A stretch of DNA of 64,000 nt, taken from contig CAXXQS010000001.1 of NCBI GenBank assembly GCA_963674735.2, forward strand, positions 2,080,001 through 2,144,000, read 5' to 3'. Positions 20,824 through 24,622 of this stretch are shown here, piece by piece; positions within the stretch are counted from its first letter, which is position 1, and the number at the start of each line of letters is the position of its first letter. A program made the position numbers and the translations under genes. Origin of the DNA: Myxococcota bacterium (GTDB lineage Bacteria > Myxococcota_A > SURF-8). Under the pieces are notes generated by a model, which had not been told where the DNA came from, made no database searches, and saw only the letters and a program-made list of their open reading frames with translations.

Positions 20824-22149
20824 ATGAAAACGATCCGAACGCAAACCGATGTGGTGGTGGCCGGCTCCGGTCCCGGCGGGGCCACGGTCGCGCGTCAACT
20901 CGCCCGAGCCGGAAAGAAAGTGGTGCTGCTCGAAAAGGGACGCGAACAGCGCATGATCGGCAATCACTTCGCCGCGCTGCTTTTCGCCGACCGCCTCGGA
21001 TTGTCGTTCAGCGAAGAAGGCATGAACATCGTGCGCGCCTTCATCTCCGGCGGCTCGACCATCATGTATTGCGGCGCGGCTTCCGAACCGCCCGAGTGGT
21101 TCAACAGCCGCTACGGGATCGACCTCGCCCCCTATTGCCGCGAGACCATCGAAGAACTCAAGCTCGAACCCTTGCCCGATGAAATCGTGGGCAGCGCCGG
21201 GTTGCGCATTCTGGAAGCGGGCAACGAGCTGGGCCACGGATTTCAAAAGCTGCCCAAGTTCATTTCGCCCGAACGTTGCCGCATGCGCTGCGGCGGCACC
21301 TGCATGCTGGGCTGCCCGCACAAAGCCAAGTGGACCGCCCGCGAATACATCCAGGACATGCGCGAGGCCGGAGGCGAGTTGATTGCTCGCGCCGACGTGC
21401 AGGAGGTCATCATCGAAGACGGCGTGGCGCGAGGACTTCGCGCACTCACCCCGCACGGCCTGCTGGAAGTCGCGGCCGAGACCGTCGTCATTGCGGCGGG
21501 CGGCATCGGAACGCCGTCGATTCTGCAACGCTCGGGATTGCATGAAGCAGGACAACGCATGTTCGTCGACCCGCTACTGTTCGTCACCGGCGTCTCGCGC
21601 TTTGCGGGCACCTGCCAAGGACCGCCCATGACCGTGGGCACCTACGACTACATCGAGGAAGGCATCCTGCTATCCGATCTGATCGACCCCTGGGGGATGT
21701 GGCTGATCATGACCTTGCTGCGCAACCCCTCCAAGCTTTTGAACTTTCTGTCCTACCGCCGTCAATTGAGCCTGATGGTGAAGATCGGCGACGAACACGA
21801 GGGCTTCATCACGATGGACGGCCGCATCTCCAAGCCGCTCAGCCTACGCGATCGGCAACGCCTCAACCGCGGGGCCTCCATGGCACGTCAGATTCTCATC
21901 AAGGCGGGCTGCCGTCCCGATTCCATCATGGTCGGCCCGGTGCGCGGCGCGCATCCCGGAGCCACAGCGCGTATCGGCGATGTGGTGGACCGCAACCTGC
22001 AAACGCGCATCCCCGGCCTCTACGTGTCCGACGCCTCGGTCATCCCCGAAGCACTCGACCGCCCGGTGGTTCTCACGCTCATCAGTCTGGCCAAACGCCT
22101 TTCAGAACATCTGCTGGCAGGCGGGAAAGAAAAGATGGGGCAGACGTGA
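20824..22149 (+). CDS. GMC family FAD-dependent oxidoreductase
   Basis: GSGPGG, LEKG, GGST, CRMRCGGTCMLGCP, AAGGIGTP, HPGATA and YVSDASVIP motifs. Confidence 0.85.
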   Translation: MKTIRTQTDVVVAGSGPGGATVARQLARAGKKVVLLEKGREQRMIGNHFAALLFADRLGLSFSEEGMNIVRAFISGGSTIMYCGAASEPPEWFNSRYGIDLAPYCRETIEELKLEPLPDEIVGSAGLRILEAGNELGHGFQKLPKFISPERCRMRCGGTCMLGCPHKAKWTAREYIQDMREAGGELIARADVQEVIIEDGVARGLRALTPHGLLEVAAETVVIAAGGIGTPSILQRSGLHEAGQRMFVDPLLFVTGVSRFAGTCQGPPMTVGTYDYIEEGILLSDLIDPWGMWLIMTLLRNPSKLLNFLSYRRQLSLMVKIGDEHEGFITMDGRISKPLSLRDRQRLNRGASMARQILIKAGCRPDSIMVGPVRGAHPGATARIGDVVDRNLQTRIPGLYVSDASVIPEALDRPVVLTLISLAKRLSEHLLAGGKEKMGQT

Positions 22150-22232
22150 GAGAGAGTGCCTGTTTAAGGAATGCCCCCTCACCATCTTTCAATTTGCATA
22201 TCTTGGGCATGAATGTTGTCCATTCCGCTCAT

Positions 22233-22283
22233 CCGTGTTGGAACGCGTCTCCGACGGGCTCCGGATGTTGCGTCATTCATCTT
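22233..22283 (+). repeat. REP-like repeat A, copy 1
   Basis: CCGTGTTGGAACGCGTCTCCGACGGGCTCCGGATGTTGCGTCATTCATCTT; 49/51 identical to 26483-26533; internal imperfect hairpin. Confidence 0.8.
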
Positions 22284-22425
22284 ATTCTTTGGCAGGAACA
22301 GGGCTCTGTCCTGTGCCGCAGGTTTGTCCAACCGAGTAGGACGGGAGCCCTTCGAACGGAAGGGGTCGACAAAGTAGGGAACGGCCAACCTGAAAACGAG
22401 GCGTTCTGGTGTGTGCATACACGAA

Positions 22426-22449
22426 GATGGGCAACAAGTTGCCCATCCT
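22426..22449 (-). repeat. GTAG-type REP (repeat B) interrupted by IS110
   Basis: Perfect hairpin GATGGGCAAC-AA-GTTGCCCATC. Removing the IS rebuilds GTAG-GATGGGCAAC-TT-GTTGCCCATC on the minus strand. Confidence 0.75.
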
Positions 22450-22463
22450 TGTATTATCCCTTT

Positions 22464-22665
22464 CAAGCGACTGTCATCGTTTGTGATGATAAGATGAAAC
22501 GACCTCCCGTAGCAAGCGGGAGGCCGTGGTGGGCGGCGAGATCGTCCCATCCTGGGGCCTGATGAGCCCGTTTTGTAGCCGGATCCGCCGTCCGTTTCGT
22601 CCGGGAAAACCCGAACAGTCGCAGGGGCCATTGTAATCGAAATGAGCCCGTATTGGCAAGGAAGG
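22464..22665 (+). ncRNA. IS110 bridge RNA (predicted; ends approximate)
   Basis: Target loop TCCCATCCT (22545-53) / GTAG (22575-78) matches the flanks GCCCATC-CT-AC. Donor loop ACAGTCGC (22615-22) / CAAG (22657-60) matches the junction ACAGTCG-CT-TG. Each guide pair flanks a GGGC...GCCC stem. Confidence 0.8.
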
Positions 22666-22672
22666 GTGCGCC

Positions 22673-23608
22673 ATGAAGAAATGGATCGGGATCGACGTCA
22701 GCAAAGCCGTTTTCGATGTCGCCGTCGACGGCGAAAGCACGTGCGTCCGCTACGCTTACACCAAAGCCGGCATGACACGCTTCGTCCGTTCGTTGAAGCG
22801 GATCGAGGTGGAGGGCGTCGTGATGGAAGCCACCGGCGGCTACGAACGGGAGCTGTGCAAACGTCTTCAGAAAGCGGGTTGGCCGGTGGCGGTGGTCAAT
22901 CCCCGGCGCATCCGGGATTATGCCCGCGCCGTCGGCGTGATGGCGAAAACGGATCGACTCGATGCGGGCATCATCGCACGCTACGCAGCCGCCATGCGTC
23001 CCGCACCGAACGAAACGCTCGGCGAAACCGCCCTCCTGTTAAAAGCCCTGTCTTCACGGAGGCGGCAGCTGGTCGCCATGCGCACGATGGAGAAAAACCG
23101 CACCGAACACGTGGGCGATCGGACGATCGGACAAAGCCTGCACCGCATTCTGGAGGTGATCGAACGGGAAATCGAGCGGCTGGATCGGGCCATCGCGGCG
23201 GCCATTGCATCGGATCGGGAGCGCAGCGACCGGGCCGCGCGGCTCCAAACGATGCCGGGCGTCGGCGCGTGCACGGCGAATCTTCTGGTGACGGATCTGC
23301 CGGAGCTGGGGATCTACAACCGGCGGCAGATCGCGGCGTTGATCGGCGTGGCGCCCATGAATCGGGACAGCGGAACGTTTCGGGGTAAACGCATGACCGG
23401 CGGCGGTCGTCATCGCCTGCGCACGGCGCTCTACATGCCGACGCTGGTGGCGATTCAACACAACCCGGTGATTCGCGGACACTACCAGCGGCTGGTCGGA
23501 CGCGGCAAACCGAAGATGACGGCGGTGGTGGCCTGCATGCGAAAATTGGTCCTCATTCTCAACACGATGATGCGGAAAAACGAAGCCTGGAACCCGAATT
23601 TCGCTTGA
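22673..23608 (+). CDS. IS110 family recombinase/transposase (DEDD RuvC + Transposase_20)
   Basis: GIDVSK, VMEATG, KTDRLDA (DEDD), MPGVG, GVAPMNRDSG (catalytic Ser) and ACMRKL motifs; intact 311 aa. Confidence 0.95.
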   Translation: MKKWIGIDVSKAVFDVAVDGESTCVRYAYTKAGMTRFVRSLKRIEVEGVVMEATGGYERELCKRLQKAGWPVAVVNPRRIRDYARAVGVMAKTDRLDAGIIARYAAAMRPAPNETLGETALLLKALSSRRRQLVAMRTMEKNRTEHVGDRTIGQSLHRILEVIEREIERLDRAIAAAIASDRERSDRAARLQTMPGVGACTANLLVTDLPELGIYNRRQIAALIGVAPMNRDSGTFRGKRMTGGGRHRLRTALYMPTLVAIQHNPVIRGHYQRLVGRGKPKMTAVVACMRKLVLILNTMMRKNEAWNPNFA

Positions 23609-23610
23609 CA
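23605..23610 (+). promoter_or_regulatory. -35 box of the IS110 circle-junction promoter
   Basis: TTGACA at the right end. On circularisation it lies exactly 17 bp from TATTAT (22452-22457). Confidence 0.8.
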
Positions 23611-23650
23611 CCGATAACAGTCGCTACTCACTACTCACTAATCATCATTC

Positions 23651-23679
23651 CCGTGTTGGAGCGTGTCTCCGACGGGCTC
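23651..23679 (+). repeat. REP-like repeat A, copy 2 (short)
   Basis: CCGTGTTGGAGCGTGTCTCCGACGGGCTC. Confidence 0.78.
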
Positions 23680-23695
23680 TCGCTATGCCCCGTTT

Positions 23696-24622
23696 TTAAT
23701 ATGCTTGATGAGGTTGCCTGGACATGTAAAGGATCACAAAGGACTCCATGGGTAGTTTACCGATATTCACGGCTTTTCCCCCCTTATTGCAGTTCGAATC
23801 AACGCAAAGCGATTTAGGCTCTATTGCACATCCTTCATTTCTTAGGAGAATCTGGAATTTGCAAATTAGAGGTTCGTACCCAAACGTAGAGAAAAAGAAT
23901 TCCGAGGTGTCTTCAGGAAACGCATTATATTTCCAGTAGGCTTTTTCCGAGGTAAAGCCTTCAACAGAGACATTGATCTCGGTGAATCCCATTTCCGTAC
24001 CTCTTACATGCTGAAGGCCGACTCCTTTAGGAATTCTCCAGCAATTGGTATTGTCATCCTGCACGGCAAATGAAAAAAAGACGTGTGGCTCAACATCGAA
24101 GGTGATTTCTGAAAGGTCCTGATTCAAAGGAGTTGCAAAAGGGTTCTGCGTAAAGTGGAGGGAGTTTTCCTTCAATTTATATTCCGCAGGAAAGGGAATT
24201 TTGTAACTCTGACATGTTTCCATCTCATTATTGAGATTATAGCTTGAAGGCAATTCATCCTCATCAATAACCCGAATCAACACTGCACTTTTTTCCGCAA
24301 TCCATACCCCATTTGAGGAGGTGAAATCGACTTTCGGCAATACCCCTTCAAACTTTACTCGTTTGCATCTATGTTGCTGTCCGTTCGAGATCCGAAAGGT
24401 TGCTATATCCGAATAATATGATTGGATATTCACTTTAATCGATACATATGCGCCCTCTGTTAATTCCGAGCTGAACTTCGGACACAGGTCTATCCTTCCT
24501 ACATTAACGGATTTGTTTTGGACTTCGCCCGGTCGTGGATGCCTTCCCCCACACACGATCAACAGAACGACAATCGTAGCCAGAGCGGTAACAATCAACA
24601 ACGTTCGCATAACCAATCTCAT
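23696..24622 (-). CDS. Hypothetical membrane-anchored or secreted Cys-containing protein (AT-rich)
   Basis: N-terminal hydrophobic helix MRLVMRTLLIVTALATIVVLLIVC; starts 5 bp after the stop of the SIR2-like gene. Confidence 0.65.
   Translation of the reverse strand: MRLVMRTLLIVTALATIVVLLIVCGGRHPRPGEVQNKSVNVGRIDLCPKFSSELTEGAYVSIKVNIQSYYSDIATFRISNGQQHRCKRVKFEGVLPKVDFTSSNGVWIAEKSAVLIRVIDEDELPSSYNLNNEMETCQSYKIPFPAEYKLKENSLHFTQNPFATPLNQDLSEITFDVEPHVFFSFAVQDDNTNCWRIPKGVGLQHVRGTEMGFTEINVSVEGFTSEKAYWKYNAFPEDTSEFFFSTFGYEPLICKFQILLRNEGCAIEPKSLCVDSNCNKGGKAVNIGKLPMESFVILYMSRQPHQAY

What the first reader, a model, noticed from the sequence alone, without database searches (positions are those of the whole stretch)
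22448..22479. IS110 left end carries a 16-nt antisense copy of its own circle junction
Seen: CAAGCGACTGTCATCG (22464-79) is the reverse complement (15/16) of CGATAACAGTCGCTTG, a sequence that exists in full only after circularisation. In the circle this forms a 16-bp inverted repeat whose 12-nt loop (TATTATCCCTTT) holds the -10 box. It also sits at the predicted transcript 5' end and is complementary to the left donor guide ACAGUCGC. I do not recall this in IS621. Inference: an autoregulatory device (anti-guide masking the donor loop, cruciform-controlled promoter, or a second inverted donor-like site), or an intermediate toward IS1111-type subterminal inverted repeats.
Basis: partly seen in the sequence, partly recalled or inferred. 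Interest (0 to 1): 0.7.

Follow-up and report, generated by a model that had tools for sequence, protein, structure and literature searches.

The report
Junction-spanning inverted repeat in IS110
A small RNA-guided jumping gene carries, just inside its left end, a near-perfect backwards copy of the joint formed when it closes into a circle, so the joint can fold into a hairpin; related elements often have the same thing, and no published work we could find explains it.

Summary
Window 22464-22479 is the reverse complement, 15 of 16, of the circle joint (23612-23625 followed by 22450-22451). The next best match inside the element is 10/16, and 0 of 3000 shuffles reached 15.

The element (22450-23625) is an IS621-like IS110 insertion sequence:
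- It has 8 identical copies, each inserted after the same REP hairpin at a CT core.
- It encodes a canonical bridge RNA.
- Circularisation would build a TTGACA-N17-TATTAT promoter.

The inverted copy is not a one-off:
- It sits at the same place in 2 of 4 related Myxococcota lineages, in another register in a third, and is absent in the fourth.
- Across 88 distinct family members, joint-leader inverted complementarity is enriched: 13 at p<=0.05 against 3-4 in three orientation controls.

The arms extend into sequence that only the joint has, not the donor-guide flanks. The pairing partner is therefore the joint itself.

Best reading (about 0.35): a fold-back hairpin that restores a duplex crossover site, chiefly the left-donor side, in the single-stranded circular intermediate. 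In this copy the same segment is also predicted to mask the donor guide in the long transcript (P 0.93). That prediction does not hold in its closest relatives. Function is untested.

The parts
22426..22447 (+). REP hairpin that carries the left target. All 8 copies of the element are inserted directly after it plus CT.
   Evidence: flags it, with the T-rich start of the element, as terminator-like.
22448..22449 (+). Left copy of the CT core dinucleotide.
   Evidence: occupied sites read ...CCATC-CT-element, empty sites ...CCATC-CT-AC.
22450..23625 (+). IS621-like IS110-family insertion sequence, 1176 bp including the right CT core (23624-23625).
   Evidence: 8 identical copies with unrelated flanks.
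22452..22463 (+). Loop between the two arms. Its first 6 nt (TATTAT, 22452-22457) are the -10 box of the joint promoter.
   Evidence: Read directly. TTGACA at 23605-23610 gives a 17-nt spacer across the joint.
22464..22479 (+). Left-end arm: the inverted copy (15/16) of the circle joint.
   Evidence: In a single-stranded fold of the joined ends, the core and its neighbours pair with this arm at P>=0.98.
23612..23625 (+). Right-end arm: the last 14 nt of the element (7-nt left donor, 5 nt of flank, CT core). In the circle it is completed by 22450-22451.
22487..22495 (+). Putative internal extended -10 (TGATAAGAT). It would start a 170-175-nt bridge RNA near 22501 that lacks the arm.
   Evidence: Inference from the sequence. 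A TAnnAT-type box stands at the aligned place in all 5 related lineages. Not mapped, and not flagged by the scan, which requires a -35.
22503..22523 (+). 5' stem-loop of the bridge RNA.
   Evidence: An equivalent element is described for IS621 (passages of PMC11208158).
22533..22593 (+). Target-binding loop. The left target guide is 22546-22553 (same sense as ...CCCATC-CT). The right target guide is GTAG at 22575-22578.
   Evidence: Consensus fold with compensatory changes. Guides were read against the insertion sites.
22610..22668 (+). Donor-binding loop. The left donor guide ACAGTCGC is at 22615-22622. The right donor guide is AT at 22652-22653 plus CAAG at 22657-22660. GA at 22661-22662 would match the last two bases of the left target.
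   Evidence: for the fold. Guides were read against the ends. The guide scheme is taken from passages of PMC11208158.
22673..23608 (+). Recombinase gene, 311 aa.
   Evidence: PF01548 E 3e-22 and PF02371 E 8e-19.
23605..23610 (+). TTGACA, the -35 box of the joint promoter. It overlaps the stop codon.
   Evidence: Read directly. TTGA at the stop is conserved across relatives.

Best explanation
What it is (confidence about 0.9). It is a selected inverted repeat between the right-end terminus (the circle joint) and a leader segment 14 nt inside the left end of an IS621-like bridge-RNA element. When the two ends are joined on one strand, the crossover site sits in a 16-bp stem closed by a 12-nt loop. 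That stem covers the left donor, the CT core and the first 2 nt of the right donor.

How it most likely works (inferred, about 0.35). Published work on IS621 and CazIS110-1 reports that these elements are copied out as a single-stranded top-strand circle. In such a circle the left donor guide has no bottom strand to pair with.

The fold-back arm supplies that strand in cis. It has exactly the bottom-strand sequence of left donor, core and 2 nt. The excised strand therefore regains a duplex, full-match donor site. The same arm can also act as a splint that holds the left-donor 3' end next to the right-donor 5' end.

It would be an accessory enhancer of excision and/or of direct use of the single-stranded circle, not an essential part of the element.

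Shown here: the repeat, its significance, its recurrence, its partner, and the predicted hairpin.
Inferred: the single-stranded stage in this element, and any effect on recombination.
For: 1. The repeat is real. It is 15/16, and 0 of 3000 shuffles reach that.

2. It is kept in related lineages at only 57-62% protein identity, where the rest of the leader has diverged:
- L066 has CAGGCGACTGTT at the same place, plus a bulge and 3 more pairs that fit its own, different right-end flank.
- L065 has CAAGCGATTGTT, 12 pairs with one G-T.
- L058 has GTATAATCGAGCGAC, an inverted copy of core plus left-end terminus, further in.

3. The signal holds family-wide. Inverted complementarity between joint and leader reaches p<=0.01 in 6/88 and p<=0.05 in 13/88. 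The direct, reversed and complement controls give 1/3, 0/4 and 1/4. An exact antisense match of 6 nt or more covering the core occurs in 16/88.

4. The partner is the joint, not the guide:
- The flank 5' of the donor guide is constant (CCCGA) in the 5 close lineages, while the right-end flank varies and the arm follows it.
- In L058, L079, L167, L159 and L077 the arm runs into the left-end terminus, which the guide loop lacks.

5. Folded as single-stranded DNA, the joined ends give a hairpin of -13.5 kcal/mol. The core pairs at P>=0.98, and z is -5.27 against shuffled leaders, the lowest of the 88.

6. Literature:
- IS621 excision yields a single-stranded circle (bioRxiv 10.64898/2026.08.31.748434, sections read).
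- For CazIS110-1, top-strand ssDNA donors integrate, but the LD-RT junction forms about 20-fold less well than with dsDNA (bioRxiv 10.1101/2025.10.25.684509, passages). That is the side this arm would repair.
Against: - No experiment and no read evidence exists for circles, strandedness or expression in this organism. The runs were contigs only and showed no joints.
- The repeat is dispensable. L067 lacks it yet has several copies. The Marinobacter clade and an E. coli plasmid element (L218, p 0.8-0.99) lack it. According to passages of PMC11208160, IS621 recombines with a 22-bp donor.
- In several lineages the arm covers only 4 nt of the left donor plus the core and then runs into the right donor, so 'repairing the LD side' does not fit all of them.
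- L180 keeps AGCGAC although its donor changed.
- The one mismatch in this copy is A-C on the top strand. It would be a T-G wobble on the bottom strand.
- Internal mismatches in other stems lean towards top-strand G-T, but only weakly: 13 against 4 A-C, or 10 against 4 after collapsing near relatives.
- At p<=0.05, about 4 of the 13 positives are expected by chance.
- The labelled elements are scattered on the tree (16 changes; 97 of 500 shuffles are as low; quick tree). One origin with many losses cannot be told apart from repeated gains.
Confidence: 0.35

Rival explanations
1. RNA anti-guide. Transcripts from the joint promoter start at about 22465, so they begin with the arm. The arm pairs with the left donor guide (22615-22622) and keeps the donor-binding loop closed. 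Transcripts from an internal promoter (start about 22501) lack it and are active. The result would be two isoforms with different competence.
For: - MFE and centroid structures of 22465-22680 pair the two 8-mers. z is -3.19, against -1.49 for 22501-22680.
- The mean pairing probability of the guide with the leader is 0.93.
- The same is predicted for L174 (0.89) and L058 (0.60).
Against: - It is not predicted in the relatives that keep the repeat at the same place: L065 0.00 and L066 0.09. L167 gives 0.01.
- Only 8 of the 16 nt can pair with the guide region. The other 7 matched positions fit the right-end flank and the first 2 nt of the left end instead.
- In L079, L167, L145, L149, L159 and L180 the arm starts at left-end position 9-12, partly upstream of the expected start.
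- Masking the donor loop in the very RNA made by the donor circle seems counter-productive.
- The start site is not mapped.
Confidence: 0.15
2. DNA-level control of the joint promoter in the double-stranded circle. The arms flank the region melted in the open complex (-10 box to start site). Cruciform extrusion, or a factor binding the palindrome, would tune promoter activity.
For: - The loop coincides with the -10 box and discriminator.
- In many relatives the arm sits at left-end position 9-25, around the expected start site.
- The loop is AT-rich.
Against: - The distance between the arms varies from 3 to more than 30 nt across lineages. This argues against a fixed protein site.
- A 12-nt loop disfavours extrusion.
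- There is no evidence of any binding factor.
- It does not explain why the arm follows the right-end flank.
Confidence: 0.12
3. Hairpin in RNA that reads across the joint. It would act as a terminator or processing site that stops transcription running round the small circle, or that trims the long transcript.
For: - The RNA hairpin is -20.8 kcal/mol.
- It is followed by TTTGTGAT, 5 T in 8.
- Processing of a long transcript into the bridge RNA is assumed in the literature (passages of PMC12288879).
Against: - The loop of 12 nt is longer than usual for terminators.
- No T-run follows the stem in L065, L066, L079 or L167.
- Nothing shows that transcripts cross the joint.
Confidence: 0.08
4. Second, inverted donor-like site. 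The bottom strand of 22464-22479 reads left donor, CT and 2 nt. The donor-binding loop could engage it as a decoy that competes with the true joint, or as a partner for inversion of the element's interior.
For: - There is a full 8-nt match to the left donor guide, plus the CAAG part of the right donor guide.
- Half-matches are reported to be enough for recombination (abstract and discussion of 10.64898/2026.08.31.748434).
Against: - All 8 copies have the same internal orientation.
- No alternative joints were seen in the contigs laid, although contigs drop rare forms.
- In many relatives the arm is too short on the left-donor side.
Confidence: 0.07
5. Relic without function. An old inverted duplication of the right end inside the left end is decaying neutrally. 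Here it happens to be well preserved.
For: - It is absent or degenerate in many active relatives.
- Its distribution on the tree is scattered.
Against: - It is kept at the same place in lineages with 57-59% protein identity, while the neighbouring leader is unalignable.
- The distal part differs between this copy and L066, yet fits each one's own right end.
- Enrichment is specific to the inverted orientation.
Confidence: 0.13

Closest known systems
IS621 and related IS110-type bridge-RNA elements
   Same: - The same two Pfam domains.
- A CT core, REP-hairpin targets and no duplication.
- An upstream non-coding left end that encodes a 5' stem-loop, a target-binding loop and a donor-binding loop, with guides that fit target and donor (and direct reading).
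- A promoter rebuilt across the joint.
- The same left-end start (TGTAT) and a similar right end.
   Different: - The left end here is 223 nt. It is 178 nt in an E. coli plasmid relative (L218), and the IS621 RNA is reported as 177 nt (passages of PMC11208160).
- The extra roughly 40 nt hold the inverted copy of the joint and a second -10-like box.
- L218 has no such copy (p 0.8-0.99). I could not examine IS621 itself.
Subterminal inverted repeats (sTIR) of the IS1111 group
   Same: A near-perfect inverted repeat of more than 11 bp near both ends of a DEDD-recombinase element. In the circle it brackets the joint.
   Different: - In IS1111 types the repeats are 11-13 bp, with 7 bp of extension on the left and 3 bp on the right. 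The joint therefore lies between the arms, and the long non-coding region is downstream of the gene (passages of PMC11187229).
- Here the right arm reaches the very end and crosses the joint by 2 nt, and the left arm starts 14 nt in. The crossover lies inside the stem, and the non-coding region is upstream.
[quoted passage not shown]
Folded single-stranded recombination sites (integron attC; CTX phage attP)
   Same: A works-like comparison only. Two inverted half-copies on one strand fold to rebuild a duplex crossover site, which a recombinase can then use with single-strand exchange. This comparison rests on my own knowledge and comes from no call.
   Different: - Those recombinases are tyrosine recombinases that recognise protein-binding arms. 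Here recognition is by RNA guides.
- Use of the folded form here is a hypothesis, not a result.
Target stem-loop 'structural gate' of ISPpu10
   Same: A DNA stem-loop next to the crossover acts as an extra recognition determinant for an IS110 recombinase (abstract of bioRxiv 10.64898/2026.03.19.712850). This element also targets a REP hairpin.
   Different: That stem-loop is in the target, 5' of the core, and does not include the core. The repeat here is in the donor and includes the core.

Membership tests
IS110 family, IS110/IS621 type (bridge recombinase element) | Recombinase with a DEDD RuvC-like domain and a Tnp domain. | tested here: met
   PF01548 E 3e-22 and PF02371 E 8e-19.
IS110 family, IS110/IS621 type (bridge recombinase element) | Long non-coding region upstream of the gene, folding into a target-binding and a donor-binding loop. 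| tested here: met
   The left end is 223 nt. The consensus fold of 32 relatives has 27 pairs, 14 of them with compensatory changes. No Rfam family reached its threshold.
IS110 family, IS110/IS621 type (bridge recombinase element) | Guides complementary to target and donor around a CT core; site-specific insertion without duplication. | tested here: met
   8 copies sit at the same REP site. Empty sites read ...CCATC-CT-AC. The guides are at 22546-53, 22575-78, 22615-22 and 22657-60, read directly.
IS110 family, IS110/IS621 type (bridge recombinase element) | Circular intermediate with a promoter formed across the joint. | tested here: inconclusive
   The promoter follows from the sequence (TTGACA-N17-TATTAT). 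No circle joints appeared in the 3 runs laid, which were contigs only.
IS1111-type subterminal inverted repeats | Near-perfect inverted repeat of 11-13 bp. | tested here: met
   15/16.
IS1111-type subterminal inverted repeats | Terminal extensions of about 7 bp (left) and 3 bp (right) beyond the repeats. | tested here: not met
   The left extension is 14 nt. The right arm ends at the terminus and needs 2 nt of the left end. The criterion comes from passages of PMC11187229.
IS1111-type subterminal inverted repeats | Long non-coding region downstream of the gene. | tested here: not met
   Only 17 nt follow the stop codon. The non-coding region is upstream.
Folded single-stranded recombination site (works-like only) | The element passes through a single-stranded stage. 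| not testable with these tools
   Reported for IS621 and CazIS110-1 in two preprints. Nothing is known for this element.
Folded single-stranded recombination site (works-like only) | Intrastrand pairing rebuilds a duplex across the crossover. | tested here: met
   In silico only. The DNA hairpin is -13.5 kcal/mol, and the core pairs at P>=0.98.
Intrinsic terminator | GC-rich stem, loop of 3-8 nt, T-run after the stem, conserved in relatives. | tested here: not met
   The loop is 12 nt. The T-run (5 of 8) is present here but not in L065, L066, L079 or L167.

The most novel reading that the evidence does not exclude
IS110-type elements can carry, in cis, a surrogate bottom strand for their left donor. 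In the copied-out single-stranded circle, the leader arm folds onto the joint and rebuilds a duplex, full-match donor site. It can also splint the two ends during strand joining. The single strand could then be inserted directly by top-strand exchange, without waiting for the host to make the second strand. This would be an RNA-guided counterpart of folded attC and CTX attP sites.
Probability: 0.3. Interest if true: 0.85.

Novelty: new variant of a known kind. Interest (0 to 1): 0.62.

Why it matters
Bridge recombinases are being developed as programmable genome-writing tools, and their natural life cycle is under revision. Two recent preprints argue for single-stranded, copy-out intermediates. 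One of them reports that single-stranded donors are poor on the left-donor side specifically.

A natural cis element that folds the joint into a duplex would matter in three ways:
- It would explain how some elements cope with that weakness.
- It would give a simple design rule for single-stranded donors: add an inverted copy of left donor plus core.
- It would show that the 'IS110 type has no inverted repeats' rule has exceptions with a distinct geometry.

If the segment turns out to mask the donor guide instead, it would be the first built-in off-switch of a bridge RNA. Either outcome can be tested with a handful of constructs.

Tried and rejected
- Rfam scan of 21800-24200 at E<=1. It gave only a weak minus-strand match to sX15 (23.5 bits against a gathering score of 55) and a microRNA model. 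No bridge-RNA family reached its threshold.
- Search for closer relatives:
  - The phylum search covered 401 genomes and gave only the 4 lineages already known.
  - Distal-arm covariation therefore rests on very few lineages.
- Sequencing runs. No RNA holder was listed. The 3 DNA runs are kept as contigs. The element is collapsed into one 1202-nt unitig and no joints are listed. This says nothing for or against circles, inversion or expression.
- First Smith-Waterman pass. It mis-set the left end of L058 at an internal second TGTAT box. I redid it with corrected ends, so the figures (9/90 and 14/90) are superseded.
- Count of 'cross pairs' in MFE folds. Its null values were too high (means of 3-8) to be useful, so I used z-scores and alignment scores instead. 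Of the 13 elements with z<-2, two (L114, L144) owe it to hairpins inside the leader, not to the joint.
- Wobble bias as a test of strand or RNA. The count is 13 G-T against 4 A-C internal mismatches, or 10 against 4 after collapsing relatives. That is too weak to decide.
- Rows dropped on the way to the 88 elements:
  - I examined 161 loci (L038 plus L058-L217).
  - 5 had no recognisable frame and 6 lacked the N-terminal motif.
  - 124 were distinct and had enough flank.
  - 102 had a recognisable right-end motif and a YTGTAT left end within 262 nt of the start codon, and 88 of these were distinct.
  - Elements with other ends, such as L096, L113, L115 and L135, were therefore left out.
- Careful tree. 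It did not finish in 300 s, so the quick tree was used.
- IS621 itself was not examined. I looked at two E. coli plasmid relatives (L218, L219) as stand-ins. L219's left end is cut.
- Literature. Searches, plus reading of the passages named in the report, found no description of an inverted copy of the joint, an anti-guide or a fold-back donor in IS110-type elements. The supplements of these papers were not seen, and their ortholog tables could bear on this.

Full report
THE ELEMENT

Window 22450-23625 is an insertion sequence of 1176 bp. The genome holds 8 copies that are 100% identical over the whole element and have unrelated flanks. Each copy lies directly after the same REP hairpin (22426-22447 in the window) plus CT and is followed by AC. 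In the fetched loci, 14 unoccupied copies of that REP read ...CCATCCT followed by AC (13) or AT (1). The target is therefore ...CCATC-CT-AC, the core is CT, and nothing is duplicated.

The only long frame (22673-23608, 311 aa) has the two IS110 domains, PF01548 and PF02371.

The 223-nt left end encodes a bridge RNA of the IS621 kind.
- A consensus fold of the last 150 nt before the start codon, from 32 relatives, gives the two stem / internal loop / stem-loop modules. It has 27 pairs, 14 of them with compensatory changes.
- The guide segments fit this element's own target and ends: 22546-22553 for the left target, GTAG at 22575-22578 for the right target, ACAGTCGC at 22615-22622 for the left donor, and CAAG at 22657-22660 for core plus right donor.
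- The guide scheme (left guides pair the bottom strand, right guides the top strand) is taken from passages of PMC11208158.

Joining the ends places TTGACA (23605-23610, overlapping the stop codon) 17 nt from TATTAT (22452-22457).

THE OBSERVATION

22464-22479 pairs with 23612-23625 followed by 22450-22451 at 15 of 16 positions. The mismatch is A23616 against C22475. Inside the element the next best inverted match is 10/16, 0 of 3000 dinucleotide shuffles reach 15, and the analytic expectation is 1.3e-5. The 12-nt loop begins with the -10 box. The description is correct in every checkable point. Only the transcript start is inferred.

IS IT PECULIAR TO THIS COPY?

Relatives of the recombinase were collected as follows:
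- from 41 and then 401 genomes of the phylum, which gave 4 further lineages at 54-62% identity;
- from genome contigs (80 loci);
- from metagenome contigs (80 loci).

After filtering (see Tried and rejected), 88 distinct elements with recognisable ends remained. Nearly all share the left-end start TGTAT and a right end of the ACAGTCGCT type.

The four closest lineages compare as follows:
- L066 and L065 have the inverted copy at the same position, left-end nt 15 onward.
- L066 has 12 pairs with a T-G at the core T. After a one-base bulge, 3 more pairs fit its own right-end flank, which differs from the window's.
- L065 has 12 pairs with one G-T.
- L058 has an inverted copy in another register. 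Its 15 nt at left-end positions 29-43 mirror core plus left-end terminus.
- L067 has none.

Across all 88 elements I aligned the reverse complement of the joint (16 nt of right end plus 12 nt of left end) locally against the leader:

| Orientation | p<=0.01 | p<=0.05 |
|---|---|---|
| Inverted | 6/88 | 13/88 |
| Direct | 1/88 | 3/88 |
| Reversed | 0/88 | 4/88 |
| Complement only | 1/88 | 4/88 |

Further results:
- An exact antisense match of 6 nt or more that covers both core bases occurs in 16/88. In 11 of these p<=0.05, against 4.4 expected.
- Folded as single-stranded DNA, the joined ends are more stable than with shuffled leaders (z<-2) in 13/88. This element is the most extreme at z -5.27.
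- On a quick tree the 19 elements positive in either test are scattered: 16 changes, and 97 of 500 shuffles are as low.

The feature is thus recurrent but held by a minority, and it is dispensable. Active multi-copy relatives lack it, and so does an E. coli plasmid element with a 178-nt left end.

Most relatives have the same left donor, so the test has little power. Among the 8 lineages with a changed donor:
- L130 has AGTAGA in its leader, which fits its donor.
- L199 has AGCGATT, which fits its donor.
- L190 has AGTGA, a match of only 5 nt.
- L180 keeps AGCGAC, which does not fit its changed donor.
- L188, L215, the Marinobacter clade and the ACAGTTGCT clade have nothing.

This is support, but it is patchy.

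WHAT DOES THE ARM PAIR WITH?

The left donor guide has the same 8 nt as the right end, so any antisense copy matches both. The extensions decide between them.
- In the five close lineages the RNA flank 5' of the guide is constant (CCCGA). The right-end flank varies, and in the window and in L066 the arm follows the right-end flank.
- In L058, L079, L167, L159 and L077 the arm continues into the left-end terminus, which the donor-binding loop does not contain.
- In six lineages the arm begins at left-end position 9-12, which is partly upstream of where the joint promoter would start.

The common denominator is that the crossover region of the joined ends (the GTCGCT-TG region) sits in a stem. 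The partner is the joint itself.

THE RNA-LEVEL CONSEQUENCE IN THIS COPY

If transcription starts near 22465, the RNA begins with the arm. Folding then pairs the arm with the donor guide at P 0.93, with z -3.19 against -1.49 for an RNA starting at 22501. However, the same calculation gives 0.00 and 0.09 for L065 and L066, which keep the repeat at the same place, so it is unlikely to be what selection maintains.

A second -10-like box stands 6-13 nt before the 5' stem-loop in all five close lineages (TGATAAGAT at 22487-22495 here). It would give a 170-175-nt RNA of IS621 size without the arm.

MECHANISM

Recent work changes what a joint hairpin could mean.
- One preprint reports that IS621 excises mainly one strand, giving a single-stranded circle that the host must convert (10.64898/2026.08.31.748434; abstract and sections 6 and 9 read).
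- Another reports copy-out of the top strand for CazIS110-1. Top-strand single-stranded donors integrate, but the LD-RT junction forms about 20-fold less well than with double-stranded donors (10.1101/2025.10.25.684509; abstract and passages).

In a top-strand circle the left donor guide has no partner, because it pairs with the bottom strand. The arm at 22464-22479 has exactly the bottom-strand sequence of 12 nt of right end (left donor plus flank), the core and 2 nt. It lies on the same strand 12 nt away, and it is predicted to pair with the joint at P>=0.98 (-13.5 kcal/mol as DNA).

I therefore favour a fold-back that rebuilds a duplex donor site on the excised strand and/or splints the two ends while they are joined. 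I put this at about 0.35.

It does not fit every lineage equally, because some arms lean to the right-donor side. Nothing here shows a single-stranded stage for this element.

The rivals, with my odds:

| Rival | Odds |
|---|---|
| Anti-guide | 0.15 |
| Relic without function | 0.13 |
| Promoter or cruciform control | 0.12 |
| Hairpin in read-through RNA | 0.08 |
| Inverted pseudo-donor site | 0.07 |

COMPARISON WITH WHAT IS KNOWN

The element is a member of the IS110/IS621 type. All sequence-level criteria are met, and the circle itself was not observed.

The repeat resembles IS1111 subterminal repeats in length but fails their geometry. Those have 7- and 3-bp extensions with the joint between the arms, and their non-coding region is downstream (passages of PMC11187229).

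That paper and PMC12288879 (passages) both state that the IS110 type lacks such repeats. Four full-text searches found no description of an inverted copy of the joint or of an anti-guide. Supplements were closed.

VERDICT

This is a real, statistically solid and recurrent cis feature of a subset of IS621-like elements, most perfectly developed in this copy. Its function is open, and there is a concrete, testable hypothesis tied to a current debate. Novelty: new variant of a known kind. Interest: 0.62.

Noticed in passing
window 23613-23616 with 22455-22458, and the same positions in 88 related elements: A second, nested palindrome brackets the 14-nt donor site recognised by the RNA. Right-end position -10 is Watson-Crick complementary to left-end position +6 in 73/88 elements, with all 4 pair types and no G-T. 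For -11/+7 the figure is 81/88, and for -12/+8 it is 63/88. Registers slid by 1-2 positions do much worse. These positions lie just outside the guides. The pattern could reflect symmetric protein contacts or DNA pairing. I found no mention of it in the passages I read.
   Followed up: partly
window 22487-22495 and the aligned positions in L058, L065, L066, L067: A second -10-like box (TAnnAT type, often with TG upstream) stands 6-13 nt before the 5' stem-loop in all five close lineages. It suggests an internal promoter that lets integrated copies make a bridge RNA of IS621 size. It is not mapped.
   Followed up: partly
window 22659-22630 and 22515-22486 (minus strand); 22527-22499 (minus strand): There are two promoter-like sites on the minus strand inside the bridge-RNA region (10/12 and 9/12 matches). 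There is also a minus-strand terminator-like hairpin, the complement of the 5' stem-loop. Together they could give antisense RNAs like Asr9 of ISPpu9 (passages of PMC12288879). The second promoter would start about at the last base of the arm.
   Followed up: no
window 22426-22457: The REP hairpin plus the T-rich start of the element is flagged as terminator-like on the plus strand. Insertion behind it may shield the element from read-through transcription.
   Followed up: no
window 22527-22659, minus strand: There is a weak Rfam match to the Xanthomonas sRNA family sX15 (23.5 bits, gathering score 55, E 0.42) over the bridge-RNA region, on the opposite strand. That family may be related to IS110 left ends.
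   Followed up: no
window 22233-22262 and 23651-23679: A second repeat family of about 30 nt flanks this copy on both sides and recurs many times in the genome. It is part of the mosaic in which the target REP sits, not of the element.
   Followed up: no
L150 and L146, left-end positions about 60-95: [quoted passage not shown] L146 carries compensatory changes.
   Followed up: no
L058 (and its 6 sister copies), left-end positions 27-35: A second TGTATAAT box lies 28 nt inside the left end. It is the top-strand reading of an inverted copy of the joint's -10 region, so an inverted joint copy can itself create an internal -10 box.
   Followed up: partly
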